Source: Diplonema japonicum
Lineage: Eukaryota; Protista; Euglenozoa: Diplonemea
DNA: 64,000 nt
Direction: 5' to 3'
NCBI GenBank assembly: GCA_964019335.1
Contig: OZ025685.1
Span: 1 to 64,000, forward strand
This document shows, one piece after another, positions 42,436-62,111 of this stretch (position 1 is the stretch's first letter; every line of letters begins with the position of its first letter). Under the pieces are notes generated by a model. The model was not told the origin of the DNA and made no database searches. It saw only the letters and a program-made list of their open reading frames with translations. The translations under genes were made by a program, and so were the position numbers.

Positions 42436-42730
42436 TGCCTTGCAACATACTGTAGAGGGATAGTAGGGAAGGGCGACTGGTTCGTCTCGATGTAGTTGTC
42501 GTACAGCTTAAGAGGAACGATTTTTAACTCACCTGTGTTAAGTGTTATAATAGGACAAAATGACTGACCCTGTTGAGAGTCTGGCTACGTACTTTATGCT
42601 TGCCTTGGATATTAATCACGCAATGCAAGCACAATTGGGCAAAAAAAAGAACACCAAAAGAAACGCCAGTGATTGGGGTACAAAAATTACACATTAGTAA
42701 GAGTATTTTACGGAAAAATACCTGCGTGAT

Positions 42731-43106
42731 GACTTAATTGAATTGAGGCTCCCGAAAGCCAAGACTTAATTGAATTTAGGCTCCCGAAAGCCCAACAAAT
42801 CCAGCAGATGGTGGGGTTTCACAGTAAGCTGGTTAATACTTCGCTTTCGAAACACCTCCAAGGTTCTTAAAATCTGAGAGGTCGTCTCTTATTACTAGAG
42901 GCGGCTAATGCCTCGAGGCCCCTGGTGGGTGGGATCGGTTTTGTCTTATAATGAAAAGAGCGTCGTGAGGGGGTCCAAGTAATGTACTACAGGGAACAGC
43001 GGACCAGGACTCCTCGACCAATACCTCAGCAACGGAGATTGCTTTTCACGAGTCGAGCTGTCAAACACCACTGCCGCCTGGTTGTGGAATATTTATTATT
43101 GTTATT
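42731..43106 (+). mobile_element. Old retroposon 3' fragment (element W), outermost member of the tRNA-Lys stack
   Basis: Ends CCGCCTGGTTGTGGAATATTTATTATT, nearly identical to the end of element Z (48781-48810). Flanked by CC(T/C)GCGTGAT at 42721-42730 and 43107-43116. Confidence 0.6.
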
Positions 43107-44059
43107 CCCGCGTGATTTCCTATAATTTTAGAATAAGTAACCAGTAACTTTTTCCCTTCCCCCATTGGTTTCCCTTTCTTTCCCTACCAGGCGCCTTTAC
43201 TAACAAACCAGCAGAGGTGGGTCCCTGTGGCTGGATAAATCAAAATTAGGGTACCCATCGCCGTCCTTTTATTTTGGGGTTGTCTTTATTTGGTGACGAG
43301 TGATGCCTTCGAGGCCCAAAAGCTACATGGCGGACACTACGTTAGCTGGGTCTGCTTCAGCTCAAAAGAGCACTTCTAGGAGTCTGCGGCTGTGACGCAG
43401 CAGTCGAGTGGTGGGGGTTCTTGCAAGAACGGGGATTGTGCCCCACTTTCTTGCAGTTGCCGCAGGTGTGTCCCCTCTCCTTCGCTCAGTTTCCTCTTAT
43501 CCCCCAACGAGGGTCTCCCCGTTCTTGAGTTACAACGGGGGGTTATCTTCACACACCCTGACAGAAGGCAGGCGGGGGGTGGCGTAATACATTAAACGCC
43601 AAGCGGCGACCCGCAAACACTTGGGAAGGAGATCCAAGTGGTTCTTGTGCCCCGCGGGCCACAGCACAAATGTGGACGCAGGGTGTTTTCAACACATCCA
43701 ACCCTGCAACATACTCAAACCCCCCCCCTGGGCACCACTCAGGGAAAGAGACTGTGGCCCTTTGAGCAGAACCCAAGGCCCACCTACGTTGTGTGCTTGC
43801 CACTTTCGAAACTGTGGCTTGCGTTGGTGGAGACAGCGGCGCAAATGCGCATGTTGCAATTGCCAACAGGGAAAGAAATGGTGGCACGGTTGTTTTTTCT
43901 GACGCTCTGCTTGGCTCTGCGTTCGTCAAACCCAAACAGGGCCACTGCCGTCCCCACAATTGTGGCGAAAACGGTGTCCTTGGCCAGAGGGTCAGTTAGA
44001 ACGCCGTGCAACGTGGTTGTGAATAAGGAAGAAGGCGAAATAAATCAAAGAAGGCTGTG

Positions 44060-44400
44060 GTAAGTAGTGATAAAGGTTTGGGAAGGTGGAAAAATTTTTC
44101 GAGAAAACCGTGGTGGTGGAAATAATTTTCGAAGTTACCGTGGAAGGTGGAAAAAGCCTTGGTGGTTACCGTGGATGGTGGGAAACATTTTTGAGGTTAC
44201 CGTGGATGGTGGAAATATGCCGCCAAGTTGCCGTGGTTGGTGGATTTCAAAAGTGGTTACCGTGGATGGTGGACAAAATATTTTGAAAACGTGTTTGGTG
44301 GATATGCAAGTTTCCGTGGACAATAGAGAAATATATTCGAGTTACCGTGGACAAAGGGCAAAAAACAGGTTACAGAGTTTGGTGGAAAATCCAAATTCAC
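44060..44400 (+). repeat. Degenerate minisatellite with GTTACCGTGGA core
   Basis: About 8 copies of (A/G)GTT(A/G/T)CCGTGG(A/T) at ~30-40-bp spacing. Confidence 0.75.
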
Positions 44401-44442
44401 TTGTTGTGTAGTTTTTCTCTTATTATTATTATTATTATTATT

Positions 44443-46019
44443 CATAGTGTCCAGGGTTAACCGATCACCTTCGGGTTTTGAAACCCGACCCGAGCAATTT
44501 TAGATTTTCGATCACAGTCGGGTTAATGATCGGTTTTTTTCTAATTTCGGATCGGTCTGATCGGTTTTTTTTAATTTCGGATCGGTTTGATCGATCCAAA
44601 ACCCATATTTCTGGCAAAAAATACCAAGACCATGCTCAAATTTTTTTTTTTTTCAAAAACCCTATTTTGACGATCTGAGCCCATTCCAGCCATTAAAACC
44701 CAAAATAGAGCCTTATTTAAGGCCTTAAATGCAGTTTTGAAAAAACTGGTTTCAGACCTGTAATTCTCCTGGGTCAGGGAGGTCCAAGTTAAAAACAACA
44801 GGATTTATGATCGGTTTGATCGATCCAAAACCCATATTTCTGGCAAAAAATACCAAGACCATGCTCAAAAATTCTTTTTTCTAAAAACCCTATTTTGACG
44901 ATCTGAGCCCATTCCAGCCATCAAAACCCAAAATAGAGCCTTATTTAAGGCCTTAAATGCAGTTTTGAAGCTCAGAAAGCTGCTCTCCCTGTTTTGCATG
45001 ACAGGGCCTTGTCGCTGCTGTATACGCAGCCTGTGGTAACAGCCGTGGACGCGGTGTTCTCCTCGATCGACGCCAAGTTCGGAGAGATGCCTCGCGTCCG
45101 CCTCACACCAGACGTACGAAGGCAGCTGTTGTTCTTGTACCTGAACCAGGACATCAGTGGTGCTCTGTCTTCGTCTGACAGGCACCACGTTCTCAGGCAC
45201 GCCGGGTTGCAAGCAGGGAGGTAAGAAATTGTGCGTTCATCGCTGTGTGCGTGCATTCAGTTCTCTGTGGGTGAACATCCTGCCTCAACGGGCACGCTTC
45301 CGTATGTCCCATGGAGCTTTTCAAGGCGCCCCCTTACTTTGTGCGTTGCTACTTCCCGTTCAAGTTTCAATGTTTTTCATTATTGACTTTCGTGCCCAGT
45401 TAAAAACCCGCCAAAAACAGGGAGAATGCCGATTTTCGGGAAAATAATCCTTTTCTAAGTTGTTTCGATGCAGGCGTTGTGTACCTGGGAGGTCCGGGAG
45501 ACGAATAGAAGGGTTATAAGTATGGTTGCATGCTCTCCTCCCGTTCTAATTATTGATTTTTGATTTCGCTCCTATTTAAACAGAAAAAAGAAGAAAAACC
45601 GCCAAAAAAAAGCGAAAAAACAGCTTTTCGGGAAAATAATCCTTTTCTAAGTCGTTTTGATGCTCCCTGGGGTCGGCTTTGTGTATCTGGGGGGCCCGGG
45701 GGATGAAACGAAGGGTTTTAAGCATGATTGCATGCTCTCCTCCTGTTTTAATTTTTTTTTTTTGATTTTCGATTTTTTTTGTTTTTTCGCTTTTAATTAA
45801 AAACCCGTCAAAAAAAGCGAAAAAACAGCTTTTCGAGAAAATAATCCTTTTCTAAGTCGTTTTGATGCTCCCTGGGGCCGGCTTTGTGTATCTGGGGGGC
45901 CCGGGATACGAATATAAGGGTTTTAAGCATGGTTGCATGCTCGCCTTTCATTTGACGTCAATTTAAAACCTGGTTGTAATTAAAAACCCGTGGGTGATTG
46001 GTTAACCCTGGATACTATG
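44443..46019 (+). mobile_element. Non-autonomous hAT-like DNA transposon (deletion derivative)
   Basis: ~40-bp imperfect TIRs (CATAGTGTCCAGGGTTAACCGATCACC / GGTGATTGGTTAACCCTGGATACTATG). Subterminal duplications: ~160 bp x2 on the left and ~190 bp x3 on the right. Internal remnant ALSLLYTQPVVTAVDAVFSS...RVRLTPDVRRQLLFLYLN resembles the hAT dimerisation domain. Confidence 0.8.
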
Positions 46020-46055
46020 ATTATTATTATTAATATTATTATTAGTTCGTGATTT

Positions 46056-46629
46056 CGTTCCCTGCCAAAAAACCCCTCCCTCCTTTTAAGACGGTACAGT
46101 GTATTGAAAAGAAAAAAAAATAAAAATAAAAAAGAAAAAGAAAAAAAAAAGAAAAAAAAAAAAACTATATAAATAAACAACAGAAAGAAAGAAAAACTAT
46201 TCAAGCCCCAACGACAAACAAAAACCGGCATGGGGACGGCTCGGGGCCGGTCGAAGGCAAGAGTCGCCCCGAAATCCTTAAGACGATCCTTCCTATTGAG
46301 GGGGATGCGCTACCAGGGGAAAGGAAAAAAGGTGGCCATGGGCAGGTCAGTCGAAGGAATATACTAGGGGGCCAAGAGGCAGACTGATTGCGCCATAGGC
46401 GATACAAAAGGAGTAGATTTTGACCAAGAAAGAATGGAACAATGGAATATCTGAAAGGAAGTATACACACACTCCCCTTACTGAATACCGTCTTGCTTCA
46501 CCCTGTGATTTGCCAGGCACAATTATGTCACCCTGTGCAACACAGACTTTTGATGTTTCAAACCTCTTTATCTTCTCTCCACCTTTTGTCTCCCCCACTG
46601 GCAGTGGAACAAATATTATTATTATTATT
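46056..46629 (+). mobile_element. 5'-truncated non-coding retroposon (element X) with an (ATT)n tail
   Basis: Bounded by AGTTCGTGATTT direct repeats; 46205-46400 is homologous to 47262-47450 of element Y; ends CTGGCAGTGGAACAAAT(ATT)n. Confidence 0.75.
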
Positions 46630-46643
46630 AGTTCGTGATTTAA

Positions 46644-46764
46644 GGGGTCGAATACACACACACACATGAAAATGTAAGCCCGACCCGAGTGTGTGTGGTG
46701 GCTGCCCACCTCCCTGTGGTGGCCCTGGGCAACGTGTACGCAAGGTGCACGGCTAAGAGGCAGC
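46644..46764 (+). ncRNA. HDV-like self-cleaving ribozyme (copy 1)
   Basis: P1 GGGGUCG/UGGCCCU (G1.U wobble); P2 GCUGCC/GGCAGC; P3 CAC/GUG; L3 CUCCCU; P1.1 CC/GG; P4 CGUGUAC/GUGCACG after GGGCAA; J4/2 GCUAAGA with putative catalytic C46753. Confidence 0.85.
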
Positions 46765-47948
46765 TTCCCTCTTGTTGCGTGGGGTGAGTCGTGTGGGGAC
46801 GCTGGACTCCTGGCCGAGCAAAACGAGGGAGGTGCTGGAGCGAAGACGGTCTGTTTGGCACAAGCCGCTATCGGGGCACCGGTAGCGGGGGAATAAGACC
46901 AACAGACTCGTTCTGAGCGAAGGCATCTCTCGAGTGGAGCGGAGCCGGGGGGGCGTTCGTGCTGATCCGGGTCCCGACCGGCCCTCTACTTCAACTATCC
47001 CTCTCCCAACCCCTTCCTTCCTCTCACGAGTTGGCCCTGCCGCTCCAACGCGCTGGTAGCCTGACGCCAGCGCCGACGACGACGACGACCGGGGCCCTCG
47101 AAATGGGCAACTTAAATGAGTAGAGTAGAGTCATTTCCCCCCCAAAAAAACCTCACCCGATGTCTCCTGTTCTGCTGCCAGGTCTTTTCTACCCCTTTTG
47201 ATTCAATATGAAGAAAGAGGATTATTTAAAAAAAAATTTTTTTTTTATATTTTTTTTCCTGCCCCACGACCCAACAAATCCAGTATGGGGATGGCCACGT
47301 GCTGGTTACGGTCTTGGTCACCCCGAAATCCATAGGACGTTCCCTCAATAGAGGGGGAAGCGCTGCTGGCGGGGAATGTGCGGAGTAGGCCGTGGAGCAC
47401 CAGTCAAAGGAATTTATTAGGGGGCAAGAACCAGACTGCGTGCTGCCACCGGTGTTCAATAAAAAAGAAAAAGGTGATTATAAGAGAAAGAAGAAAGGAA
47501 GAAGAGAAAGAAGGGGAGAACTGGAAAAAAGAAGGAAAGAAGAAAAGAAAAAATAGAGAAGAAAAGGAAAGGATGAGAAAGGATATATGAATGCCGAGGT
47601 ACTCACGCTCCTCTCTGTGGGCGAAAGGCTACACGGAACCTTGCTTGTAAAATTTTTATGAACTGATCCTTATAAAAAAGAATGAAGAAAGACCAGAAGG
47701 AGGGAGTGCTTTATTCCCCTTCCCCAAGGTGCTCTCTTGTCATCTTCATGTAGCGAAAGGCTGCTTGATACCTTTGATTACTTTTGCGATTTGGACTTAT
47801 TTTTTCTACTTTTCTCGAGCTCGGATTTTCAAGGCTCTCTTTTGGCATTTTCTTTCCCTTCCCCCCTTTCTTTTTGCACCCTTCTTTTTAAACCTTCTCT
47901 GGTGCACCCGATCTGGCAGTCGGAACATATATTATTATTATTATTATT
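46644..47948 (+). mobile_element. Full-length non-autonomous retroposon (element Y) with HDV-like ribozyme head and (ATT)n tail
   Basis: Lies between AGTTCGTGATTT repeats at 46630-46641 and 47949-47960; no long ORF; ends CTGGCAGTCGGAACATAT(ATT)n. Confidence 0.8.
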
Positions 47949-47971
47949 AGTTCGTGATTTCCGAGCCCACC

Positions 47972-48406
47972 AACAGCGACTCCCCCGGCCACCACCGCCT
48001 CGTCACCGGTGGCGAATGTCTCTCTCTCCCACCACTCAGTAGGAGGGATGAGGTCCTGATCATTCGGCTCCGGACCGGACACACGCCTTTGATGAGGGGG
48101 TACCTCCAGCTCAAGGGACCCCTGAGGGCTGAGGGGAGTCATCACCTCACCTGCCCCGCCTGCAACGTTCAATCACCGCTCGACGCTGATCACCTGCTGA
48201 GGGGCTGTCATTCTCTGGCTCCCACAGCTAAGTCCTTCTACGACACTGGGCTGCCGCTCCGCGCGCTGCTTTCCAAGCACTCCGCCGAGGTCTGCGCCTT
48301 CATCGAGGCCTCCGGGCTCTTATCATGGTCTGAGTGTGGGATCTTCCCCCCGGCCGACGCAGCACAAGGGTGATCGTGAGCCCATTATAGACCCCCCCCT
48401 ACCCCC

Positions 48407-48437
<31 letters not shown>

Positions 48438-48819
48438 ACTCACACGCAAATGGGCCAAGAAACAACCTCCCGGGAGGCAGCCACAGGGAAGGCCGGGAGG
48501 GCGCAGGGCGCAGCAAGAGAACGCCCCTGCGTTCAGCCTCGAGGGGACCGCCCCGAATGTAATCAGCCAGGTCGGCTGTCCCAGGAAGGGGGAACGGAGC
48601 ACCGAAGGGAAGGTTCAGCCCACGTGGTGGCCCTCTCGGTTACTCCAGACAAAAGACTGGACACACCCCACACCCCTCCCCCCCCACCCCCAGTTTCCCC
48701 CCAGTGGTTATTATTGCAAAAAAAATCCTCTTGGTTTGAAGTGATGTCCCATTCCCTTTCTCTACTCCCCTTCGATCCTCCCGCCTGGTAGTGGAATATT
48801 TATTATTATTCAAAAAAAA
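47972..48819 (+). mobile_element. 5'-truncated LINE 3' end (element Z) with a 13-bp TSD overlapping tRNA-Lys
   Basis: ORF remnant RRDEVLIIRLRTGH...CPAC...DHLLRGC...SGLLSWS is homologous to the C-terminus of ORF 49634-52771. TSD TTCCGAGCCCACC at 47959-47971 and 48820-48832. Confidence 0.85.
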
Positions 48820-48825
48820 TTCCGA

Positions 48826-48897
48826 GCCCACCTAGCTCAGCGGTAGAGCGTTGGACCTTTAATCCAATGGTCGTGGGTTCGATCCCCACGGTGGGTG
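48826..48897 (+). tRNA. tRNA-Lys(UUU) with atypical C33
   Basis: Cloverleaf: acceptor GCCCACC/GGTGGGT, anticodon arm TTGGA-CCTTTAA-TCCAA, T-arm GTGGG-TTCGATC-CCCAC; downstream T6 terminator. Confidence 0.88.
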
Positions 48898-48959
48898 CTT
48901 TTTTCTAAGGCAAGATTTTTCTATGGCAGCAAAAAACTGTTGCAGTTGGACAAAAAAAA

Positions 48960-49032
48960 CTCCCCCTGTTGGGTTCGAACCAACGACCTGCAGGTTAACA
49001 GCCTGACGCGCTACCGACTGCGCCAAGGGGGA
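48960..49032 (-). tRNA. tRNA-Asn(GUU)
   Basis: TCCCCCTTGGCGCAGTCGGTAGCGCGTCAGGCTGTTAACCTGCAGGTCGTTGGTTCGAACCCAACAGGGGGAG followed by T8. Confidence 0.93.
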
Positions 49033-49104
49033 TCTGGGCTTTAATTGGGACAAAAAACGATGGTGATCCGGATACCTAATATTGGGTGAAATTAAAAAGA
49101 AAAG

Positions 49105-49186
49105 TGACGAGAGTGGGGTTTGAACCCACGCCTCCGAAGAGATTGCGGCCTTAACGCAACGCCTTAGACCGCTCGGCCATCTCGCC
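49105..49186 (-). tRNA. tRNA-Leu(AAG)
   Basis: GGCGAGATGGCCGAGCGGTCTAAGGCG-TTGCG-TTAAGGC-CGCAA, long variable arm, GTGGGTTCAAACCCCAC, TCTCGTCA. Confidence 0.93.
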
Positions 49187-49191
49187 CTTAG

Positions 49192-52100
49192 TTTTTTTTT
49201 TTTTTTTTTTTTTTCAAAATACCAATGCAGGGCCGCCATGGAGAGCAACACCTGAGAAAAGGGTAAAAAAAAGGTGAAGGGAAACCATGGGGAAATAGGG
49301 AGGGCAAAGGACCAGGCTTCTGCAAGCAGGAGGAGCCCTGGTCCCCCACCAACCCGTGCTCTGCTTTGGGACAGCCGAAGAGGGCTGAATTACATTATTC
49401 CCTCAGTCAAGTGAGAGAAAAACGGGGGCCTACCTTCCAGCTGGATGTCCTTCTTTGGCTGGAACCTCCGGCGGAAAGCCCCCCAGGGAGGTATTGCTCC
49501 TATTGAGCGAATCATTGGTGAGTGTGAAAATAAGAAAAAGGGGAAATGGGAAACAGTGAGAGGAAGGGGAAGGAAGGGAAAGGAAAGTGGGAAACACAAC
49601 ATTCCATTTTACACACACTCGCGGGGCGATCCCTTAGCGCAGCACGGGGGCCGCGGGACCGGCGTCAAGAGAGACCGGAGGAGGGGGCGGCACGTTTGAA
49701 GGTGCAGTGACGTCAGCAGACGCCAGGGATGATGGCGAGGTGAACAGTCCGGAGCGAGACCAGGCGAGCAGGCCAGACTCAACAATGAGGTCGTAGATCT
49801 GGGTCACGCGTCTCGACAGGGAGAAGGCTAGGGAGGGAGTACCAGCAGGAGTGTCGATCGCCCCCCTCCCGATCACAGGGCACCCACCGACAACATGCTC
49901 CCTGGACATCGGCGCTGCGTGGCAGGCTGGGCACCGGAGCACACCCTTGTGCTTCCTGTTCGGGCCAGCGGTCTGCAGGAAGCCGAAGAAGAGAGCCGAG
50001 TGACCAATCCGCAGCCGCGAGATGACCGTTTCAGCTTGTCTGGGGAAGCCAAGGGGGAAGTGCGCGGACCGAAGCTCGGTCGCCACCGCGTAGTTGTGGG
50101 CGAGGGATGTTATGAGCTCCGCGGACCTCCGCACCACCCACCGTCGCACCAGGGCCCTCACTGATCGGTAGTCAAGGGAGGGCCTGTCCTGCTTCCGCTT
50201 CGTTCCCTCCACGGCCAGAGCGTCAGCCTTCTCGTTCCCGTCCACCCCACAGTGGGAGGGCACAAACTGGAGGACCACCGGTGTCCCCTGCGTGCGCGCC
50301 GCGGACACCAGCCGGCTCCACGTCTGGTGGTCGAGCTTCTCCCTCTGTCGCGTTGGGCCAGCTCGCAGCTGCTCGACGAGGGAGAGGGAGTCGGTGCAGA
50401 TCGACAGCGGGGACTTCGCCAGCGAAGGGTGTGTTTTTCGGAGGGTAGCCACCATATCCAGCGCCGTTTTTACAGCCATGCCCTCTGCCCGAAAAGATGA
50501 ACAGAAGTCGTTGACGCCATGGCACACAGACACAGGGGTCAGGGGGGGAGGCAGCTGCAGATGAACCCCAGAGCCACCTTTCGCCTTCTGTCCGACCTGT
50601 ACAACCGAGCCATCCGTGTAGGCATGGATGCCCGGGGGGAGAGCCGCAAGAGCAGCCTCGGCCGCCTTCCGCCTGTCTGTGTCTGGCGACGATCGCGTGA
50701 CCCCGCCGGGAAGGTCAGTTCTGAAGTCGACCATGCCTGTCTGCCACGGGGCCGCCAGGGGCGTAGCCGACAGGTACTCGAAGTGCACCTTTGGTTCCAA
50801 CCCGCATCGACGCAGTGCTTGGTAGCCAGAGCGCAGCCACCCACACCCCAGCCTGTTCGCCTGCTTCAGCTTGACCGTCTCCCTGTGAACCGGGGAAGAC
50901 TGCCAGCAGAAGGCCTTCGCCGTCATCGTCGCCGCAGCACCCTCCGCCATTCTTTCGAGGGGAAGCAGTCCTGCCTCTGCTAGGAGCTTGTACCCTCCGG
51001 AGCCACTCCAGCAGCCCGTGATCAGCACCGCCGCCTCCTGGTGAAGCCCAGCCAGGTCCTTCCTCCCGACCTCATCGAGCCTGCTGTAGTAGACCCCCAT
51101 GCAGTAGCGCAGCAGCGGGAGGATGTACGTAACGTAGAGAGACCGCAGAGTGTCCCTCTTGCTGCCCCAGGACGTGCCGGACAAGAGCTTCAGCACCCTC
51201 AGCCTTTTGCTGGCCCGCCGTAGGATGTCCTGCGCGTGTTCACCGAACGTGAGCCCAGAGTCCACCGTAACCCCAAGGTACCTCGCGTGTTCAGACAGAG
51301 GCAGGGGACGGGCCGCAACGTAGTCCACGTCGGGCCGTCGCACGGCTGCATGCATGTCCCGCACGCAGCGGATCCGCACACCACCCGCCTCCACAACCTG
51401 AAGGCCCGCCAGCTCCTGGTCCCCGGAGATCGTGCCATCGGCGTTCACCCCCAGGCCGAAGAGCGGGTTCTGGAAGGCACCTGGCTGAAGGGGGACTCGT
51501 GACGAAGTGAAGTGGACCCCGAGACGTTTCTGGGGGGGGACGCAGACTGCCTGCGTCTTGGACGTGCTCAGCAGCATGTCACGCTCCCTGCACCAGTCCT
51601 CAACCGCATCCACCACTGCCTGCGCCTTCCGCTCCAGCCCAGCCACGTCCCCTTGTCCAGAGGAGATCACAACCGCCACGTCGTCGGCGTAGAGCACCGA
51701 GACGTCCGCCAGTCCCTCCAGTCTCCTGGCGAGTTCGTCGACGTAGATGGTGTACAGGATGGGACCCAAGACAGAGCCCTGGGGGACACCCCGTCGCACC
51801 TTCGTCGTCGACCCCCTCGACCGTCCAATCGTGACCGCAGCAGTACGGCCGCATAGAAAGGACCGCGTCCACTCCACGAAGGGTTCGGGGAGACCCTTCC
51901 CTCGCATCTTGTCCAGCAGGGCACCATGGGGCACCAGGTCGAAGGCAGAAGAGAAGTCGAACAGCAGAGCGGCCGAGAGACGTCGATCGTCTTTGTTCCT
52001 CGACATGCACTCAGTGAGGGTTGCCACCTGCTCCTCCGTGGAGCGGCCGCGTCTGAAACCAGCCTGGCTGTCGTGGAGTCCCTCGACTCCCGTCCCGTCC

Positions 52101-52814
52101 GCGTCAAGAAGAAACGTGAGCCTCTCCTCGATCATCCTCTCCAGCAGCTTGCAGAGGCAGCTGGTCAGGCAGATCGGCCGGTAGGAAGCCAAGAGAGTCG
52201 CATCTTTTCCAGGTTTCGGTACCGGGACGATCACTCCCTTCTTCCAGGCACCGGGGACGACACCCATCAGCCAGGAGCGATTGAGGAGTAGAAGGAGGAC
52301 ACCGAGGGAGTCCGTGTTCAGGTGTAGGAGCATCTCCGAGAAGATTCCGTCTTCCCCGGCCGCGCTGCGCGTCTTCATCCTTCTCAGGCCGCGGGTGAGG
52401 TCGTCCACGGTGAACGCTTGACACCCGAGTCTGCTTGCAGAAGGAGCGGCGTCCTTCGAGTTCCCGTCACCACGCCTGCCGTAGAGCTTAGCGAAGTGCG
52501 CCCCCAGCCGGTCGGCCTTCGCCTTGTCCGACACAAATCTTCCCTCGAGTACAGGAAGGTGTGTCTTTCGGTGCCTGCCGTCCAGCTTCTTCACCGCTCT
52601 GAACGCAGCCCCGAGGTCCTTGCTCCGGCTGAGGTCGGCCGCCATCCTTCCCCATGCCTCACGCTTCGTCTCGTCAAGGAGTCGGTTGACTTCCTTCACC
52701 TTCGCCCTGTACTCCTCCACCACGTCGGAGCTCAGCAGTCCACCAGGGGGTCGGGCCACGTCGCATCCCACAGAGGGGAATGTGGTCGTTCGCCGCAGTC
52801 AAAAGGGCTTGTGG
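49192..52814 (-). mobile_element. 5'-truncated Ingi/I-like LINE (element A): RT, RNase H, Zn finger, 3'UTR, A23 tail
   Basis: ORF 49634-52771 carries SYRPICLTS, QAGFRRGRST, DFSSAFD, GVPQGSVLGP, YADD, YLGV, YTDGS, TDS, PSHCGVDGNEKADALA and CPAC..EHVVGGC; flanked by CTAAG on both sides. Confidence 0.93.
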
Positions 52815-52819
52815 CTTAG

Positions 52820-55800
52820 TTTTTTTTTTTTTTTTTTCAAAATACCAATAGGTGCCACCACGGGGGAGCAACACCTGGGAAGGGGAAAGGTGAAGGGAAG
52901 CATATGGAAATATTACAGGGAGGGCGAAGACCAGTTCTTCTGCAATCAGATGGAGCTGTGGACTCCGCCAACCCGTGCACCTGTTTGGAACAGCCGAAGA
53001 GGGCTGAATTACTTTAATTCCAAGCCGCGTAGACCTACGTGACTCGGACGGGGACCTTGACCCCAGTTCGTAGTTTTTCTCAACTGGGACCTCTGGTGAC
53101 CGGAACTGGCCCCGGTCGCCCCCTCGAGAGGGATTTGCTCCATTGAGCGAAACATGAAAGGGTGAGAGTAAAATCTCTCAAAATCAAAAGAGGAAGCGAG
53201 TGTGCGTGTGCGCATGGGGATGATAGGGGAAGTATTTGCTCTCCCCGCTGCACTCCGGCAGGCGGGGGGAGGGGATGGCCGTACCACACTCGTTCGTGCG
53301 AAGATGAGAGGACTCATCAGGGCAACTTCAGAGTAGGTCGGGCCATCCGTTTTTGACTACAATGTCAGGGCACACGGCAACAAGAGGATGTCAGACCTCT
53401 GCTGAATCTGGCGACGGACCAGGGCCCTGACCGACCTGTAGTCGAGAGAGGGGCGAGTCAGCTCGCGCTTCGTGCCTTCCCCGGCCAGCCTGTCTGCCGC
53501 CTCGTTGCCAGGAACCCCGCAGTGGGACGGCACAAACTGGAGAATGACTGGTGCACCTTGCGCACGTGCCGCGGCCACCAGCAGTTCCCAGGTCTCGTGG
53601 TCGAGCTTCTCCCTCTGCCGCGAAGGACCTGCCCTCAGCTGATCAAGGAGAGAGAGCGAGTCGGTACAGATCGACAGCCGGCTGTCTGCCAACGTGGGGT
53701 GCTCGCTCCGGAGCGCGGCCACCATGTCCAGAGCCACCTTGACAGCCAGACCCTCCGCCCGAAAGGAAGAGCAGAAATTGCTGACGCCGAAGCTCTCGGA
53801 CACGGGTTCGTGGGGGCGGGGGAGCTGCAAGTAGACCCCGGCACCGCCCCTCCACCTCTGGCGGTCCCGTACGACAGAACCATCCGTATAGGCATGGATG
53901 CCCGGTGGAAGGGCAGCCAGAGCCTCCACGGCCGCCTTCCGCTTATCCACGTCCGGCGACGAACGCGTGACCCTGCCGGGAAGGGCAGTTCTGAACTCCA
54001 CCAGGATCGCATGCCACGGTGCTACTTTGGGCGAGGCAGTGAGTAGCTCGAAGGTGTCGTACTTCCTGAAGCCTTCCTGCGTCGTCCATCCCTGCAGTCC
54101 GCAGCGCCGTAGCGCAAGGATACCCGCACGCAGCCACCCATTGCCCATACTGGTCATCCGCTTCTGCTCAAGGACCTCGCGGTGAACCGGGGAGGTCCTC
54201 CAGCAGAACGACTTCGCCGTCAACTCCGCCGCAGCTCCCTCAGCCATTCGGAGGGGTAGCAGTCCTGCCTCAGCAACAACCTTCGCCGTGCCCGAGCCGT
54301 GCCAACAACCCGAGATCAGCACCGCCGCTCTCTGGTGGAGCCCAACAAGCTGCTGTCCCTGAGCCTGCAAAGTAAACACCCATGCAGTACCGGAGTAGCG
54401 GGAGAACGTACGTGAGGTACAGAGATCGGAGCGTGGCCTTCTTGCTCCCCCAGGTCGTGCCCGACAGGAGCCTTAGAACCCTCAGCCTCTTGTCAGCGCG
54501 CTTCAGGACATCCCCCGCATGCTCGTCAAACGTGAGCCCAGAGTCTACAGTGACCCCAAGATACTTCGCCGACCCACACAGAGGTAGGGGGCGAGCCGCT
54601 ATGTAACCAATGTCGGACCTCCGGATGGCGGCGGGAATGTCGAAGGACCGTTTGCCACCCGCCTCCACGACCCGAAAGCCAGACAGCTCACGGACGCCAG
54701 ACAAGGTCCCACAGGCCCCAACCCCAAAATTAAGGACAGGGTCCTGGAAGGCCCCCGGGCAAAGCGGGACACGCGACGAAGAGAAGTAGACTTTAAGCCG
54801 CTTTTGATAGGGAACGCACACTGCCTGCGACTTGCTGGAGCTCAGCAGCATGCCCCGTCTCCCACACCAGCCCTCAACCGCGTCCATCACAGCCTGGGCC
54901 CCTCGCTCAAGACCAGCCAGGTCGCCCTGCCCGGCTGAGACCACCACCGCAACATCGTCGGCATAAAGAACCGACAGGTCCGCCATCCCAACCAGCAACC
55001 TGGCTAGCTCGTCGACGTAGATGGTGTAAAGGACGGGTCCCAGCACAGACCCTTGGGGCACCCCTCTCCTCACCTTCGTCGTCGACCCGCGCGAACGACC
55101 CACCGTGACCGCTGCCGTACGACCGCAGAGGAAGGAGCGCGTCCATTCGACGAAGGGCTCAGGGATCCCCTTCCTCCGCATCATGCCCAGGAGAGCTTCG
55201 TGCTGAACCAGGTCAAACGCAGATGAGAAGTCAAACAGCAGGGCAGCCGACAGACGTCGACTGTCTTTGTTCCTCGACAGACACCCGGTCAGGGACGCCA
55301 CCTGCTCCTCCGTGGAGCGGCCCCTCCTGAAACCAGCCTGGCTATCGTGGAGACCCTCAACGCCCGACGCGCTAGAGTCTAGGAGAAAGGTAAGCCTCTC
55401 CTCTATCATCCTCTCAAGCAGCTTACAAAGACAGCTAGTGAGACATATGGGACGGTACGATGCAAGCAACGTGGCGTCCTTCCCTGCCTTCGCCATGGGA
55501 ACAATCACCCCCTTCTTCCAGGCACCCGGCACAATCCCCGCCTGCCATGAGCGATTGAGGAGCAGAAGTAGAACCCCGAGCGAGGGTTGGTCGAGGTGGA
55601 GAAGCATCTCCGCGAAGATGCCATCATCACCCGCTGCACTGCGTGTCTTCATCCTTCCCAGACCGCGGGTGAGATCATACACCGTAAAGGCGTGGCACCC
55701 AAGCACGTTCGTCGAAGGAGCTACGTCCACCGCGTCCCCATCACCACCCTGGCCGTAGAGCTTGCCGAAGTGAGCCCCCAGGCGGTCGGCTTTCGCCTTG

Positions 55801-58800
55801 TCCGTCACGAACCTCCCCTCGAGAATGGGAAGGTGCGGTCTGCGGTGTCTGCCGTCCAGCTTCTTCACCGCCCTAAACGCAGACCCGAGGTCCTTGCTCC
55901 GACTGAGGTCAGCCGCCATCTCACCCCAGGCCGCGCGCTTCGACTCGGTCAAGAGTTGATTCACCTCTTTGACCTTCGCCTTGTACACCGCCGCTACGCT
56001 GTCATCCTCTGTCTCAGCCGACTTGAGGAAGCGATCCCGCAGGGCGTTCCGTTCTTCGAAAGCGTCTTCGAGTTCGGCCGTCCACCAGGGGGTCGGGCCT
56101 CGTCGCACTCCGCAAAGCGGAATGTGGTCGTCAGCTGCATGCAGAAGAGCCTCTGTTACCTCCTTCGTGAAGGAGTCGATGTGACCCTTCGTGTCGATCT
56201 TGGTCAGAAGGGCGGCAGCGGCCGCGGAGAAGTCGTCCCACCTGGCCTTTTTGAAGTTCCAGGTAGGGCAGGGGCGCTCCGAGCAGTAGGCGTCCTCAAG
56301 CGGCAAGCGGAAGGAAACCGGGCTGTGATCAGAGCCCCACGTCCCCAACGTCCTCGGCTCCAGTTCCGCACAACGTCCCACCACCAGGTCCAGAACGCGT
56401 GGCGGTGAGTCCCGCGTCGGCTCGTCTCGGTTGTTGTAGACGGTGTAGCCGTGGGTGTCAAGCCAGTCCCTGACCACGTTCCCCCTTTCGTTGGGCGTTG
56501 TCACCTTGGCATCCCAAGAGCTGTGGTGTGCGTTGAAGTCGCCAGCAACGATCGTGTTCTTCCCCACAGGTAGGCTGCCCGGCCGTAGGTACTCGGGGTC
56601 CCTTGTTCCTCTGCTTATACTCACAGGCGTGAGGTACACGTTGGAGAGGGTGACCGGGACGCGCTTCACACAGGAGATCCTCACGTCTAATCGCTCAGTG
56701 ACACTGTCACCTTCAGGGAGTACGAAAGGAGCTTCCTCCGAGGCAAGGCAGTCACGGACATACGTGATGACACCACCGCCTCTCGTCGCAGAGCCGTCCG
56801 TCACCGGTGTTGTGCGGTCCCTCCTGTAGGACGTGTATCCAGGCAGGTATGGTGTCTCATGCCCCTCCCTAAGGTGTGTCTCCTGGATCATAATGATATC
56901 CAGCGTCAGTAGGACAGCGTGGTAGGACACGGTTGACCACTTGGCGGCAAGACCGTTGCAGTTCCAGGACAGGACCCTGAGTCCCTTCGGCTTCGGGGGT
57001 GGGAGCTTCTTAGGTGGACCGGGGTTCGTCTCAACCAGCCCAAGCAGCCCCAGCAGGTCCCTGGCCGACATCCGTTCAAGTAAGGAAGGGATCAAGGAAG
57101 GGAGGACGTCGTACAAGTGATGTGGAAGGTGTCTCCTCGGCTGTATGCGCGGGAGACCAGGAGAGGGGGCGTGGTCGTCGATCTGCCGCCCCCCCTGCTC
57201 AGCGGGACCCCTTCAATTGGCAGGGGCGGGGGCCGGGCCCACAGAGGCTGCCCGTCCACGGCCGACCCCGTTGGGGGTAGCAGAGTCGCCAGCCAGCGAC
57301 TGGGCGCGTCCCCTTCCGCCCCCTTGCTCCGTCGATGTCGGGTAGGGGCCTGGCGTGCTTACGCCCTGCGCCTGGTGCCCCTTCGTCCCTGCCTTGGACC
57401 CAGCCTTGCCGCCCTTGCCCTTCCCAGCAACTGCCGTCCGCCCAGCTCCGTCTGCAGATGACGCCGGCGCGCCAAGTGACGCTGCCATCTTCTCCTGGAG
57501 GTCGCGGACCGTCGCCTGCAGACCGTCGATGGTCGCCTGCATCGACTGGATCAGCGCGAGGAGCGCCGGGACCTCAGGTTCCGGTGCGGGATTCTTCTTC
57601 TGGGAGTCACGGGGAGGTGTCGTGGTCGGGGAAGCCGCAGAGGAGACCGGAGTCACAGTGCCAAGTGGCGGAGGGGCAACAGAGCTCGGTGGAGATGACC
57701 ACGGATTGGTGCTCGGCAGCCCTGTGGACTGCACCGTGGGGCCAGGGGCCGGCGTCGGCGTCTGGGCCGTGGTTGCCGCAACCGGCGTCCGAGCCGCGGG
57801 TGGAGCCTTCTTGTTGGTGCGGGGCGGGAGCGTGACGCTCGGGTGGTCCTCCGCGTCGTGCAGTCGAACGAGACGAGAGCCGAAGAGCCATGTCCTGGCC
57901 TTGGGGGGCGGGGCGTCGGCGACGATGAAGAACACGAGTTGCCTCGTGCCCTGGAACGCCGTGTCAGAGCGTCGGATGATGGACGACGGCTTCCAACCGA
58001 TGTGGTCCATCATCCCGTCGAAGGCTGCCCTGGTAACAGACAGCGGGGCTCCGGTGAGCAGGTACCGACGCTTTGTCCTCTGCTTGGCGAGGGCCTCCCT
58101 CAGACGCTGCTCTGTCTCCGGCACCTCACGGTCCAACCCTTGCGATGGGCCACCCCCAGACAACCCGCCCAGTGCCTTCGCCAGCTGGAAGGCCTCCGCC
58201 CTCCCCTCCGCTACGATGGGCACATAGGTGTACCCCCCGCGCCGCTCGGTCGTCCTGACCATGCAGCCGTCGCCCGAGGCCCGGAGTACCGCATGGACGG
58301 ATGCAGCCGGGAGCCGCAGGCCCACCTCGTGGCTCCAGTGCCGCGCCCGCGGCTCGTTCCCGTCGATCTTCTTCGGGCGGAAGATCGCCTGCTCCTCCAC
58401 CGCCACGCCCTGGGTCGCGACGAGGTCCCGAACCCTGGCCTTCGCCGCGTTCACGCTGTCAGCTTTCACGCTGACGTACACTACCTCAGAGCCGCCGTCA
58501 AAAGAAGCGAGTGGGGTGTAGGAGGGGGGGTTCGACCCGACCGAGAAGGTGTGCACGGCCTTGTGCACGGCACGCTGGCCGGCGAGTACGATGACGGTGC
58601 ATGGGGTGGTCGAACCGGCAACCTCCGTCAAGAGGACGAAGGTCAGGGAGGCCGTGGGCCAGTGCGAATCGCGTCCACCTGCTGGAGGTCGTCGAGAGCG
58701 ACGACGGCGCGGGGCACCTCCTCAGGGGGAGCAGTGTTGGTGTAGATGGGGGCGTCCCACGTGTCGGGGACCAGATCCCAGTGAGGCTCCGGGGCCGGTG

Positions 58801-59493
58801 CGGGAGCGGGGGCCGTGTTCTTCTCGTCGGTGTCAGAGTCCGACATGGGGAGGGCGGTGTCGCAGGCAGCGGCAGTGAGGACGGCAGTAGACCACACGGC
58901 TGCAGTAGAGGCTGGAGCAGGCGCAGGAGCAGGGGAGTCGGCAGCAGCAGGCGCAGGAGCAGTGGTGTCGGCAGCAGAAGGTGCAGGAGCAGTGGTGTTG
59001 GCAGCAGCAGGTGCAGGAGCAGTGGTGTCGGCGGCAGCAGTCCTCATCCTCGCCCTCCTGACCTCTGGCGTGTCGACCGTGAACGAGGTGACAACGCCCG
59101 GCGACTCGCTAATTAAGACGACAGAGTCGTCGGAGCCCGAAGCGGCGGCGGTGGCAGCGTCAGCAGCTGCTGCCTTCTGTCTGGCCCTTCTGGCCGCCTT
59201 CTTCCCCTGCCCGGGGGAGGGTGTCACCACCGGCGTGACCCCCTCTGCGCGCTTCCTCTCCACCTCCTCGCGCGTGCGCTTCGCCCTGGCGGCGGCGTTG
59301 TCCTTTACCCGCTCACCGCGGGCTTTCTCCAGGATTTCTTCCGTCCTGGACTTGTGGTGAGCGGGCCTCTTTTTCTTCTTGTTGGAGGTCGACATGTTTC
59401 TTTTCTTTTCTTTCCTTTCTTTTTTGAGTTTTTTTACTTTTTTGAGTTTTTTACTTTTTCCTTTCTTTTCTTTTCTTTCCTTTCTTTTTTGAG
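52820..59493 (-). mobile_element. Near full-length Ingi/I-like LINE (element B) with frameshifts: ORF1, 2A-like, APE, RT, RNase H, A18 tail
   Basis: ORF1 59395-57213 (frameshift ~58650). ORF2 has APE motifs SWNCNGL, IQETHL, GDFNAH and GSDHSP, RT YADD and RNase H (frameshift ~54370). 3'UTR is homologous to element A. Confidence 0.92.
57015..57059 (-). other. 2A-like (StopGo) peptide upstream of the APE domain
   Basis: DLLGLLGLVETNPGP versus consensus LL..GD(V/I)E.NPGP; the conserved D is L here. Confidence 0.65.
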
Positions 59494-59960
59494 TTTTTTT
59501 CAGGACGATACATATTCCACCATCAATCGGAAGGGTCAGTAAATTTGGTGAGCAAGTTTCATACCTTTTGAAGTGCAAAGAACCAGGTGGTGTGTCATGC
59601 CAAGATCTTTCTGGTGGTCTTTAATGGTGAAGAGAGATGGTTTCGGAAGGATTGCACCTTCGAAGCGAAGCCTTCGTGGCTGCCTTGTTTGGGTTCTTTC
59701 CTGAACGCGTTTTACGTTTATTGCGCAAAGAGAGATGGTGTCGTCCCTGACCTGCCAACAGCACGCAATGTCACTTCCTTTTTCGTACCACACACCATGG
59801 AGAGTGTATCCAGGAGCAGTTGCTGGACCCCCTTCTCCTGACTCTGCAACCACCGGAGCATTTTGTCCAAACTCAAACACAGGCACCTCTATCATTTTGG
59901 ACCCCCTCCTGTGATGATGGTCATAGTTATATCAAATAAATTGACGCCGGCTTTGAGCAT
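59494..59960 (-). mobile_element. Old, decayed retroelement 3' fragment (element C) upstream of element B
   Basis: Ends CCTTCCGATTGATGGTGGAATATGTAT...AAAAAAA, alignable to the element Z end CCTCCCGCCTGGTAGTGGAATATTTAT...AAAAAAAA; 5' boundary is approximate. Confidence 0.55.
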
Positions 59961-59988
59961 GGAAAAAAAAAAAAAAAAATAACTTTGA

Positions 59989-60106
59989 GGGGCCGAATAC
60001 ACACACTAATATGCAATAGGACAAAGGTGTGGTGGTGGCTGCTCACCTCCGCGTGGTGGCCCTGGGCAACGCGTGAACGCTGAAGGGTGCGCGGCTGAGA
60101 AGCGGC
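59989..60106 (+). ncRNA. HDV-like self-cleaving ribozyme (copy 2)
   Basis: P1 GGGGCCG/UGGCCCU; P2 GCUGCU/AGCGGC (compensatory change versus copy 1); P3 CAC/GUG; L3 CUCCGC; GGGCAAC-P4; J4/2 GCUGAGA with putative catalytic C60095. Confidence 0.82.
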
Positions 60107-61707
60107 TCGGGGGGCGGAGTTGGAGGACGGGGTAGCGTTGGGCGGCCGAGGACTGTAGCCGGGCGCCGTGTTGGAAGGCATCTCCTGGGGAGGCCACCCA
60201 CGCACCAGATGGAAGGCCGGAACGGAGGACGCCGTTGGATGGCACTCCTGGGGAAACTGACCTGCAAGCCCGAGTGAAGTGGCCGGACCGGGGGGCCTTG
60301 TTGCAGACAAAACAAGATTAAATGCAAATATGTCCAGAGTGGTCAGCAAGGTTCTCCCGTGAAGGGTTTTTCCCCGAAGTAAGATCGCCAGTCGCTATAG
60401 CGGGCTGGGACCCCTGCGGAGGGGTAATCGGAGCGAAGGCGTGCAATGTCTGGTCGACCACTTTAAGGGATCGTAAGCCCATTGAGTGACACAGTCGTCT
60501 GTGAAGGTCCGGTGTTGCGAAGGAAAAGAAAAAACGCCGTTTTTTCGGCAACAAGGGGGCATAAGAAACAGACGGGGCACCGGTAGCGGGGGTGTAAGAC
60601 CACTCAGACTCGGTCTGAGCAAAGGCATTCTCTCCCATCGCGCGGCGTGTGCGTGGTTGCGTGCGGCGGCGACACCCACCGTTCCTGTTCATTCCACCAG
60701 CGTCGAGAGGCTGAGACCGATCTCGCGCACAGTGGAGGCCACAGGTTGTTCCCGGCGCCCTTGTAGCGTTGTCAGTCCTGCCCCAACTGAAAGGCCAGTC
60801 AGGACACAGGCTAACTGGGTACAGGTACTCGGACAACGGTGGGGTGAACAGGAGCGGTGGGTTGTGGCTGGTGTCGCTGGTGAGTGGCGTACGGTTTGTG
60901 CTGGTTCCGCTGTGTTGTGGTGTGATGCGTGCGGCGGCGTCGCCGCCTGAAGGGCGCCGGGGGTGTTCCAGCGTACCCCATCCGAGAGACGTGAGGCTGA
61001 GACCGGTCTCGCGCGAAGTGGAGGCCACAGTGTTGATCCCGCCCTTCAGGCAATGACCGCCCTGTCGCAACTGGAAGGCCAGACAGATCGGTAGCCGAAC
61101 TGGGTACAGATAAACGGATCGACGGTGGGGTGCACGGGGACACTGGAAGAGAACTGGTTGCGGTGGAGGTGCGCTGGTCTGTCTGTGTGGCGTGGGCTGC
61201 TGGGTGCGAGGCGTGCTTTGCCGGGCCGGCAAGAAGTAGAAGTAGATTTAAACCTTTTTAGTAATAGTTTTGCCCTGTCGTGCGCCCCAACTTCTTTCTT
61301 CCTCTCTGGTTATGTTTTCTTTACATTTATTTCCAAAGGCTCCACAGCCCAACAAAACCGGCTGAAGGGGATGCCTCCGTGCCGGTGTGCCTACGAGCAC
61401 TGACGAGGTACCCCACCCCTTGAAATCCCGGAGGTTCGGCCAAAGGGTGCTGTTGTGCGATGCGGGCTGGTGAGATGCCGAGGGACGTTGAAGGTGGGCA
61501 CAGTTGCGAACGCTGGGAGCCCCCGGGCCTGCCCACCTCCCTCGCCCGCCTCGGTACGTATGGATAGTTGTGGGAGGGTTTTCTTTAAACTTTTACAAAA
61601 AAATTGTCACCCCTCTTGTTCCCCCTTTCACTTGCAGGAGGCCCTTCAGGCCTCCTCCCCAGCCTTTAGCTTCGCACGACAGTGGTACATTTATTATTAT
61701 TATTATT
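59989..61707 (+). mobile_element. Non-autonomous retroposon (element P) with HDV-like ribozyme head and (ATT)n tail
   Basis: Flanked by AACTTTGA (59981-59988 and 61710-61717); 5' end homologous to element Y; internal duplication 60700-60845 / 60990-61130; ends CAGTGGTACATTT(ATT)n. Confidence 0.78.
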
Positions 61708-61717
61708 TAAACTTTGA

Positions 61718-61984
61718 AAACCCGGAGGTTCGCCCGAAGGGTGCTGGCTTGGGAAGCGGGCTGGAGAGCTGCCGGGGTCACGGAGGTGGGCGAAGTCGCG
61801 AACACTGGAGCCCACGTACCGGCCCCACCTCCGTCCTCGGTACGTATGGATAGTTTAGCGGAAGTTTCAAGGTTATCTCATTCCTTTCCCCCTTTCGTTA
61901 GATACAGGGAGACCCTTGGTCCACCTGTTCTGTCCCCCCAGCCTTTGCTTCGCATCAGTGGTTCATTTATTTTTAAAAATATTA
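61718..61984 (+). mobile_element. 5'-truncated relative of element P (element Q)
   Basis: Homologous to 61423-61707 (CCCGGAGGTTCG, CCTCGGTACGTATGGATAGTT, CCCCAGCCTTT); bounded by TAAACTTTGA at 61708-61717 and 61985-61994. Confidence 0.78.
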
Positions 61985-62039
61985 TAAACTTTGAGCGTGA
62001 TCTCATAAATCTCGTTAAGCAATCGTCCGCGGTGGCAGA

Positions 62040-62111
62040 TCTCCTATGGTGTAGTGGTTAGCACTCGGGACTCTGAATCCCGCGACCGCGGTTCGAATCC
62101 GCGTAGGAGAA
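62040..62111 (+). tRNA. tRNA-Gln(CUG)
   Basis: Acceptor TCTCCTA/TAGGAGA, anticodon arm CGGGA-CTCTGAA-TCCCG, T-arm CGCGG-TTCGAAT-CCGCG; T7 terminator. Confidence 0.9.

What the first reader, a model, noticed from the sequence alone, without database searches (positions are those of the whole stretch)
42721..62111. tRNA-gene-targeted retrotransposon system: nested stacks upstream of three different tRNA genes
Seen: each tRNA with open upstream space has retroelements piled 5' of it, in the same orientation as the tRNA, with 3' tails pointing at +1. tRNA-Lys(+) has W, an unassigned (TTA)n-tailed unit, X, Y and Z. tRNA-Leu(-) has A, B and C. tRNA-Gln(+) has P and Q. Most members are separated by copies of the same site-specific duplication (AGTTCGTGATTT x3, TTCCGAGCCCACC x2, CTAAG x2, AACTTTGA x3). 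Tails end about 5, 6, 16 and 55 nt upstream of +1. tRNA-Asn, with only ~72 bp upstream, is empty. Known: Pol III-gene targeting exists in Dictyostelium TRE5/TRE3 and yeast Ty1/Ty3, whereas trypanosomatid ingi/L1Tc are not tRNA-specific. Inference: an APE-type LINE plus non-autonomous partners use position-specific targeting (possibly via TFIIIB/C) as a safe harbour inside a polycistronic cluster. I know of no such description for diplonemids, but could not search.
Basis: partly seen in the sequence, partly recalled or inferred. Interest (0 to 1): 0.93.

Follow-up and report, generated by a model that had tools for sequence, protein, structure and literature searches.

The report
Retrotransposons stacked upstream of diplonemid tRNAs
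In a marine Diplonema protist, several kinds of LINE retrotransposon and short non-coding partners are piled head-to-tail just in front of three tRNA genes, likely because they are guided there by the tRNA transcription machinery, a safe-landing strategy so far described mainly in yeasts and social amoebae.

Summary
The stacks are real. Three of four tRNA genes have same-strand elements whose tails end 5-6, 16 or about 55 nt before +1, separated by repeated target duplications. The host is Diplonema: element A is 99.3% identical to a D. japonicum transcript protein. A and B are APE-RT-RNase H LINEs, and B carries an ORF1 with a predicted RRM fold. Z is really two pieces, one being the 3' end of a further LINE family. 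C is not supported as an element, and a 1.6-kb inverted-repeat element sits in U's tail. Public contigs give three other junctions that fit: one piece 23 nt behind a tRNA-Lys gene and two mixed head-to-tail joins, one of them weak. No genome was held, so genome-wide targeting is untested. Part of U also occurs far from any tRNA. Best reading: position-specific tRNA targeting, like dictyostelid NLTR-A/B and TRE5, probably of independent origin in Discoba (about 0.68). The strategy is known; the lineage and the combination of parts are new.

The parts
42731..43106 (+). W: short non-coding element, outermost in the Lys stack; shares its last 33 nt with Z2; flanked by degenerate GCGTGAT copies
43120..46043 (+). 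U: non-coding unit with (ATT)n tail, interrupted by an inverted-repeat element; its middle (about 43706-43970) has a homologue at 2340-2745 with no tRNA near
44443..46019 (.). 1577-bp non-coding element with terminal inverted repeats (about 40 nt, 87.5%) inserted into U's (ATT)n tail; secondary insertion, not part of the targeting system
46044..46055 (+). target duplication AGTTCGTGATTT (positions -16 to -5 of tRNA-Lys); further copies at 46630 and 47949
46056..46629 (+). X: 5'-truncated non-coding element related to Y (74% over 136 nt; last 33 nt 94%), (ATT)n tail
46642..47948 (+). Y: full-length-looking non-coding element; HDV-like ribozyme fold at 46644-46765; (ATT)n tail
47959..47971 (+). 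target duplication TTCCGAGCCCACC (-6 to +7 of tRNA-Lys, reaching into the acceptor stem); second copy at 48820
47972..48725 (+). Z1: 3' end of a further LINE family; 134 uninterrupted codons with the C-terminal CCHC-like motif; own tail
48727..48819 (+). Z2: about 92-nt 3' piece of the abundant W-type family; tail ends at -6
48826..48898 (+). tRNA-Lys(TTT)
48960..49032 (-). tRNA-Asn(GTT); no element in its 72-nt upstream spacer
49104..49186 (-). tRNA-Leu(AAG)
49192..52814 (-). A: young, 5'-truncated LINE (RT, RNase H, CCHC-like C-terminus, poly(A)); tail ends at -5, followed by CTAAG
52820..59493 (-). B: near full-length but broken LINE, 74% identical to A: ORF1 (two frames, RRM-like fold), 2A-like motif, APE, RT, RNase H; frameshift near 54370-54400 and C-terminal deletions; poly(A) followed by CTAAG
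59494..59980 (.). C: uncertain; decayed W-type tail motif next to B, otherwise possibly the original spacer between tRNA-Leu and tRNA-Gln
59989..61707 (+). P: full-length-looking non-coding element related to Y; HDV-like ribozyme fold starts at the first base after the duplication (59989-60107); (ATT)n tail
61718..61984 (+). Q: 5'-truncated relative of P (78% over 147 nt); tail ends at -55, followed by TAAACTTTGA
62040..62111 (+). tRNA-Gln(CTG)

Best explanation
These are stacks of APE-RT-RNase H LINEs and short non-coding partners lying head-to-tail upstream of three Diplonema tRNA genes, likely built by repeated target-primed insertion at sites set by proteins bound on the tRNA gene (TFIIIB/TFIIIC) rather than by a shared DNA sequence. 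Shown: domain content, shared strand, tail offsets of -5/-6, -16 and -55, single duplications between neighbours, and intact tRNA genes. Inferred: the LINE endonuclease nicks the bottom strand at an exposed position at the edge of the Pol III complex, the RNA tail primes reverse transcription, and a second nick 5-13 nt downstream makes the duplication, which restores the tRNA-proximal site so that the next element lands there and pushes older ones outward. Inferred: W, X, Y, P, Q and Z2 are mobilised in trans, probably by the Z1-type LINE, whose 3' end resembles theirs; the predicted HDV-like ribozymes of Y and P would cut their 5' ends out of read-through transcripts. By analogy with TRE5-A, ORF1 would be the tether; untested.
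For: Duplications and offsets. Chance. The four target duplications differ in sequence, yet all lie within 55 nt upstream of +1 on the tRNA's strand. Outward decay: A (nearest) is 99.3% identical to a transcript protein with an open frame, B (outer) is frameshifted and deleted; in the Lys stack X and Y have perfect duplications, U carries a secondary insertion and W the most decayed duplication. Other loci (24 loose-end rows shown, 88 not shown): in X3 and X4 a contig joins a tRNA-Lys 3' end through 23 nt to a Z2-type piece on the same strand; in X1 an X-type tail (16 of 16 nt) runs into a short A-type 3' piece; in X1 and X3 a Z2-type tail runs into A/G-rich sequence like B's 5' end (18 of 21 nt, low complexity, weak). 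Ribozyme folds: two sub-threshold Rfam RF02682 hits; 20 of 20 modelled pairs hold in both copies, 2 with changes on both sides; the first base sits 0 and 2 nt from the duplication. The offsets match published windows of 2-6, about 15 and 39-64 bp upstream (PMC5911963 table passage; PMC5006619 sections 9, 11).
Against: No genome-wide count. The middle of U recurs at 2340-2745 with no tRNA nearby. Y and P are relatives but sit at -16 and -55, so the offset is not fixed per family. In the Gln stack the nearer unit Q has the more decayed tail, against the outward-age rule. One other tRNA gene seen (X4; X3 gives a mixed consensus of 2 contigs) has no tail in the 23 nt upstream that are shown. The other-locus Z2 piece lies behind a tRNA; what follows it is not shown, and it has the same 5' boundary as Z2 here, so it may share descent with it. 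Rough per-contig depth in X4 puts A-type 3' ends near 80-170 and W/Z2-type near 45-95 times the lowest contigs, many copies whose flanks were not seen. The ribozymes are below Rfam's cut-off (28.2 and 26.4 against 44 bits) and P1 has 6 pairs.
Confidence: 0.68

Rival explanations
1. No active tethering. The elements insert widely, prefer open A/T-rich DNA and each other's tails, and survive mainly in nucleosome-poor tRNA flanks, as tandem clusters like those of L1Tc.
For: U's middle recurs away from tRNAs; offsets vary; high apparent copy numbers; an unrelated inverted-repeat element also landed here; L1Tc occurs in tandem clusters with a shared duplication (PMC5814959 passages).
Against: Repeated use of the same nucleotide next to +1, one orientation only, and no tails of these families in the other 42.7 kb; selection alone does not set orientation or nucleotide position.
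Confidence: 0.15
2. Sequence-specific targeting. The endonuclease itself reads a motif in or beside tRNA genes (A box, or a flank motif such as CGTGAT), as Dewa or Dada elements do.
For: CGTGAT lies upstream of both tRNA-Lys (-12 to -7) and tRNA-Gln (-44 to -39); Z's duplication reaches into the tRNA; P could have entered the outer copy of its target, which would explain the Gln order.
Against: The four duplications differ; the junction is 4 nt from CGTGAT at Lys and 11 nt at Gln; three different tRNA types are hit, whereas each Dada family in Perkinsus keeps to its own tRNA type (PMC3706591 passage).
Confidence: 0.13
3. Assembly artefact: collapsed or mis-joined repeats beside multicopy tRNA genes.
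For: None positive; none of the 32 pieces shown (1534 not shown) bridges a tail-to-tRNA junction with 31 nt on each side, and the tool skipped the poly(A) junction.
Against: Neighbouring units are only 73-78% alike or unrelated, each junction carries a site-specific duplication, and mis-joins would not produce these.
Confidence: 0.04

Closest known systems
Dictyostelid NLTR-A (D. purpureum) and NLTR-B (P. pallidum)
   Same: APE-RT-RNase H non-LTR elements upstream of tRNA genes, at 2-6 bp and 39-64 bp (PMC5006619 section 9; PMC5911963 passages); here -5/-6 and -55.
   Different: Host is a discoban; several families share the sites and stack; non-coding ribozyme-headed partners; C-terminal CCHC-like motif present. 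Kinship not tested, no reference sequences were available.
Dictyostelium TRE5-A
   Same: Two-ORF APE LINE inserting 40-54 bp upstream of tRNA genes; ORF1 binds TFIIIB (PMC5911963 passages).
   Different: TRE5 is L1-clade with a zinc finger and no RNase H domain; here RNase H is present and three offsets are used.
Ty3 / DGLT-A
   Same: [quoted passage not shown]
   Different: LTR elements with integrase; these are non-LTR elements with tails and variable duplications.
Trypanosomatid ingi/L1Tc with RIME/NARTc
   Same: APE-RT-RNase H, 2A-like motif before APE, 5' HDV-like ribozyme, non-autonomous partners, tandem clusters (PMC12278014, PMC5814959, PMC3708506 passages).
   Different: ingi/L1Tc lack ORF1 and have C2H2 fingers; B has an ORF1 with a predicted RRM and a CCHC-like end. 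No tRNA targeting appeared in the passages seen.
Dewa (zebrafish LINE) and Dada DNA transposons
   Same: Insert at tRNA loci (PMC3706591 passages).
   Different: Sequence-specific and tied to given tRNA types; here three tRNA types with unlike targets.

Membership tests
APE-type non-LTR retrotransposon (A, B, Z1) | APE endonuclease plus RT in one ORF | tested here: met
   B: PF03372/PF14529 and PF00078 above cut-off; A is truncated upstream of RT; Z1 holds only the C-terminus
APE-type non-LTR retrotransposon (A, B, Z1) | 3' A-rich tail, variable target duplication, 5' truncation | tested here: met
Position-specific tRNA-targeting retroelements | fixed orientation and narrow distance to tRNA genes at the locus | tested here: met
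   3 of 4 tRNA genes; offsets -5/-6, -16, -55
Position-specific tRNA-targeting retroelements | most copies genome-wide lie beside Pol III genes | tested here: inconclusive
   no genome; one search shows only three other junctions
Position-specific tRNA-targeting retroelements | dependence on B box / TFIIIB-TFIIIC | not testable with these tools
   needs an insertion assay
Dictyostelid NLTR-A/B | RNase H downstream of RT | tested here: met
   PF00075 in A and B
Dictyostelid NLTR-A/B | RT groups with NLTR-A/B | not tested
   no tool returned these sequences; the nearest named relatives are diplonemid
TRE5 (L1 clade) | APE-RT-zinc finger without RNase H | tested here: not met
   RNase H present
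ingi/L1Tc clade | APE-RT-RNase H order | tested here: met
ingi/L1Tc clade | single ORF, no ORF1 | tested here: not met
   B has upstream coding frames with an RRM-like fold (Z 8.5, rmsd 1.9, 72 aligned; low-confidence model)
ingi/L1Tc clade | 2A motif GD(V/I)ExNPGP before APE | tested here: inconclusive
   B and P0006 read GLVETNPGP (no Asp); D. ambulator relatives read GDVHKNPGP, GDVHPNPGP, GDVEPNPGP; motif from PMC3708506 passage
ingi/L1Tc clade | C2H2 zinc fingers | tested here: not met
   regex census finds a C-terminal CCHC-like motif and no C2H2 in A, P0006, P0007
ingi/L1Tc clade | RT phylogeny | tested here: inconclusive
   no named ingi/L1Tc in the tree; three unnamed C2H2 proteins join two nodes out
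HDV-like ribozyme (Y, P) | P1, P2, P3, P4 helices in nested order with G-U first pair | tested here: met
   20 of 20 pairs in both copies, 2 double-sided and 2 one-sided changes; P1 is 6 bp
HDV-like ribozyme (Y, P) | Rfam gathering score | tested here: not met
   28.2 and 26.4 bits against 44 for RF02682
HDV-like ribozyme (Y, P) | self-cleavage | not testable with these tools
   needs in vitro transcription

The most novel reading that the evidence does not exclude
Diplonema holds a genome-wide guild of LINE lineages and ribozyme-headed non-coding partners that independently evolved Pol III tethering and use three windows (-5, -16, -55) around the TFIIIB footprint, making it the first position-specific tRNA-targeting non-LTR system outside social amoebae and the first in Discoba.
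Probability: 0.55. Interest if true: 0.74.

Novelty: new variant of a known kind. Interest (0 to 1): 0.62.

Why it matters
It would add a third eukaryotic supergroup to the lineages where retroelements converged on tRNA-gene flanks, here in a polycistronic genome where any intergenic insertion risks RNA processing. One locus shows all three offsets that yeasts and dictyostelids use separately, which points to shared geometry of the Pol III complex. A young, transcribed LINE with safe-harbour targeting is a candidate delivery tool for diplonemids and gives a direct way to ask which LINE domain tethers to TFIIIB/C.

Tried and rejected
No whole genome was held, so the genome-wide test could not be run. 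Earlier scan notes: nothing in three look-ups. Metagenome scan: 79 loci, all distant LINEs (23-36%); 0 of 79 hold a tRNA gene and none matches the window units at DNA level; many are short or collapsed contigs, so this is only a weak background control. Viral contigs: no relative by protein or by tail pattern. Prokaryote genomes: no match to a 23-nt 3' UTR pattern. No RNA holder listed. In one search the Asn-Leu spacer had no or almost no cover in 4 of 4 runs and the poly(A) junction was skipped; the tool says holes prove nothing, so neither is used. Contigs were laid on 816 nt only; W, U, X, Y, P and Q were not examined that way. First ribozyme descriptor found nothing (faulty) and the second found only Y; the third finds Y and P and 0 hits in 200 shuffles but was fitted to them, so that control is optimistic. 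ORF1: no Pfam hit; Atlas hits at 0.82 or below, leads only. C as a retroelement: not supported. A named-reference phylogeny against ingi/L1Tc, I, Tx1, TRE and NLTR remains open. Search for the class of the inverted-repeat element gave nothing useful.
Full report
Host. Element A matches a Diplonema japonicum transcript protein (P0006, EukProt) at 99.3% over 1029 aa. The window's argininosuccinate synthase is closest to D. ambulator (77%) and D. papillatum (56%). The window is therefore Diplonema, D. japonicum or very near it. The long host ORFs on both sides of the region are on the minus strand, so the tRNA cluster sits inside one gene run. No whole genome was held.

Observation. ARAGORN and Rfam find the same four tRNAs and Rfam finds no other RNA gene at gathering score. 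Exact shared sequence after the tails is 12 nt for X and Y, 13 for Z, 8-10 for P and Q, 5 for A and B, and a degenerate 7-9 for U and W. Tails end at -16 and -6 (Lys), -5 (Leu; the target's own A-run may hide a few more bases) and -55 (Gln). The Z duplication spans -6 to +7, so the second nick fell inside the acceptor stem and the duplication left the gene whole. All 5 perfect (ATT)4+ tracts of the window lie in the stacks on the tRNA's strand. Under a uniform null the chance per site is 0.0026, and 1.8e-8 for three further sites; if only a quarter of the DNA were open to insertion this would be about 1e-6 (hand arithmetic). The pattern is not chance.

Anatomy. A (49192-52814, minus) is a 5'-truncated LINE with RT and RNase H and an open frame to its stop. 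B (52820-59493) is 74% identical to A, has APE, RT and RNase H, a frameshift and C-terminal deletions. Upstream of APE it carries a 2A-like motif lacking the conserved Asp and two further coding frames; a single-sequence model of one (mean pLDDT 44.6) best matches RRM domains (Z 8.5, rmsd 1.9, 72 aligned), as expected of a LINE ORF1, though weakly supported. Z1 is the last 134 codons of another LINE family, 42-46% identical to D. ambulator proteins and 39% to A. Z2, W, X, Y, P and Q have no coding remnant against the fetched proteins and share a GTGG..A..TATT end with Z1. Y and P share a 127-nt head (74%) and a 62-nt internal motif (89%). That head gives two sub-threshold Rfam hits to an HDV ribozyme family; all 20 modelled pairs hold in both copies, two with changes on both sides, and the predicted first base lies directly after P's duplication and 2 nt after Y's. 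C is not supported as an element. A 1577-bp inverted-repeat element interrupts U's tail.

Relatives. A FastTree tree of 184 of 189 RT segments (5 dropped for short coverage) puts A, B, P0006 and two D. ambulator proteins in one clade (0.994), inside a 31-member clade (0.962) whose named members are from D. papillatum, D. ambulator, D. japonicum and Rhynchopus. No named ingi/L1Tc, TRE or NLTR sequence was in the tree, so clade membership is open. Distant metagenome LINEs had no tRNA in 79 of 79 loci, a weak control.

Other loci in the same organism. Contigs of four runs labelled organism A were laid on 48705-49520 (24 loose-end rows shown and 88 not, 32 pieces shown and 1534 not; one run may be the window's own source). 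For the reading: (i) X3 and X4 hold a contig joining a tRNA-Lys 3' end through 23 nt to a Z2-type piece on the same strand; (ii) X1 holds an X-type tail running into a short A-type 3' piece; (iii) X1 and X3 hold a Z2-type tail running into sequence like B's low-complexity 5' end. Against or neutral: another tRNA gene shows no tail in 23 upstream bases; the piece in (i) lies behind a tRNA and shares Z2's 5' boundary, so it may not be an independent insertion; no shown piece bridges a tail-to-tRNA junction. Per-contig depth in X4 was 1842 for an A 3' UTR contig with no differences, 1042 for a W/Z2-type end, 147, 141 and 63 for the Asn, Leu and Lys tRNAs, and 11-24 for the lowest contigs. The tool warns that depth is no copy number; read roughly, A is a young family of about 80-170 copies. 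D. papillatum has 211 tRNA genes (PMC10161547 passage), so such numbers do not exclude tRNA-only insertion but do not show it. Within the window, the middle of U recurs at 2340-2745 with no tRNA near.

Mechanism. Shown: sites, strand, duplications, domains. From established knowledge of LINEs (recalled): target-primed reverse transcription with staggered nicks gives such duplications and 5' truncations. Inferred: because the four targets differ in sequence but all hug the 5' side of tRNA genes, a protein tether is more likely than sequence reading. Each insertion restores the tRNA-proximal site, so stacks grow outward; decay increases outward in the Leu and Lys stacks but not clearly in the Gln stack. 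The ribozymes would free full-length partners from read-through transcripts, as described for L1Tc (PMC5814959 passages). ORF1 as tether is an analogy to TRE5-A (PMC5911963 passage). Confidence 0.68; passive accumulation 0.15; sequence-specific recognition 0.13; artefact 0.04.

Literature seen. PMC5006619: abstract, sections 9 and 11. Passages only: PMC5911963, PMC10161547, PMC12278014, PMC12621601, PMC3708506, PMC5814959, PMC3706591, PMC3916237, PMC13598402, PMC3956500, bioRxiv 10.64898/2026.07.29.740908. The review's table passage lists only dictyostelid elements among position-specific non-LTR tRNA targeters. Searches found no description of tRNA-targeted retroelements in diplonemids. The D. 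papillatum paper says a rigorous identification of elements is still to be done; seven of its supplements were searched, but Additional file 1, with the sections on repeats and structural RNAs, could not be read and may bear on novelty. The D. japonicum genome note has no occurrence of 'transpos'. Subscription papers and Repbase were not searchable.

Verdict. A real, locally striking case of several retroelement families converging on tRNA 5' flanks in a diplonemid. It works like NLTR-A/B, TRE5 and Ty3/DGLT-A targeting; it is not shown to belong to any of these families and fails two ingi/L1Tc features. New variant of a known kind; interest 0.62, pending the genome-wide count.

Noticed in passing
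window 44443-46019: 1577-bp non-coding element with about 40-nt terminal inverted repeats (starting CATAGTG) and internal 190-230-bp repeat blocks, inserted in an (ATT)n tract; class not identified.
   Followed up: partly
window 1-215: G-rich satellite on the + strand, (TTTTGCGGG)n changing to (TTTGCGGG)n; telomere-like in look, but not the C-rich strand expected at a left chromosome end.
   Followed up: no
window 2340-2745: Homologue (83-93% in three blocks) of the middle of unit U, with no tRNA nearby; suggests a dispersed repeat nested in or captured by U.
   Followed up: partly
window 1068-2200: Overlapping open frames with a cysteine-rich stretch between A/T-rich flanks; may be a decayed gene or mobile element.
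   Followed up: no
window 57213-57215: B's ORF1 ends in a TGA directly followed, in the same frame, by the APE-RT frame; read-through or re-initiation possible.
   Followed up: no
window 59397-59500: B's 5' end holds a duplicated 39-nt A/G-rich block (65-nt spacing) and no ribozyme fold was found there.
   Followed up: partly
window 59950-59988: On the + strand a copy of CTTTGAGC precedes an A17 run that ends at the Gln target; possibly a further, extremely truncated insertion.
   Followed up: no
window 28768-29992: Internal repeats of about 290 bp (82-90%) within a long minus-strand ORF without a clear Pfam family.
   Followed up: no
window 6943-8394 and 25156-26265: Argininosuccinate synthase whose next relatives after diplonemids are bacterial, and an Hsp33-family gene; possible bacterial-origin genes.
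   Followed up: no
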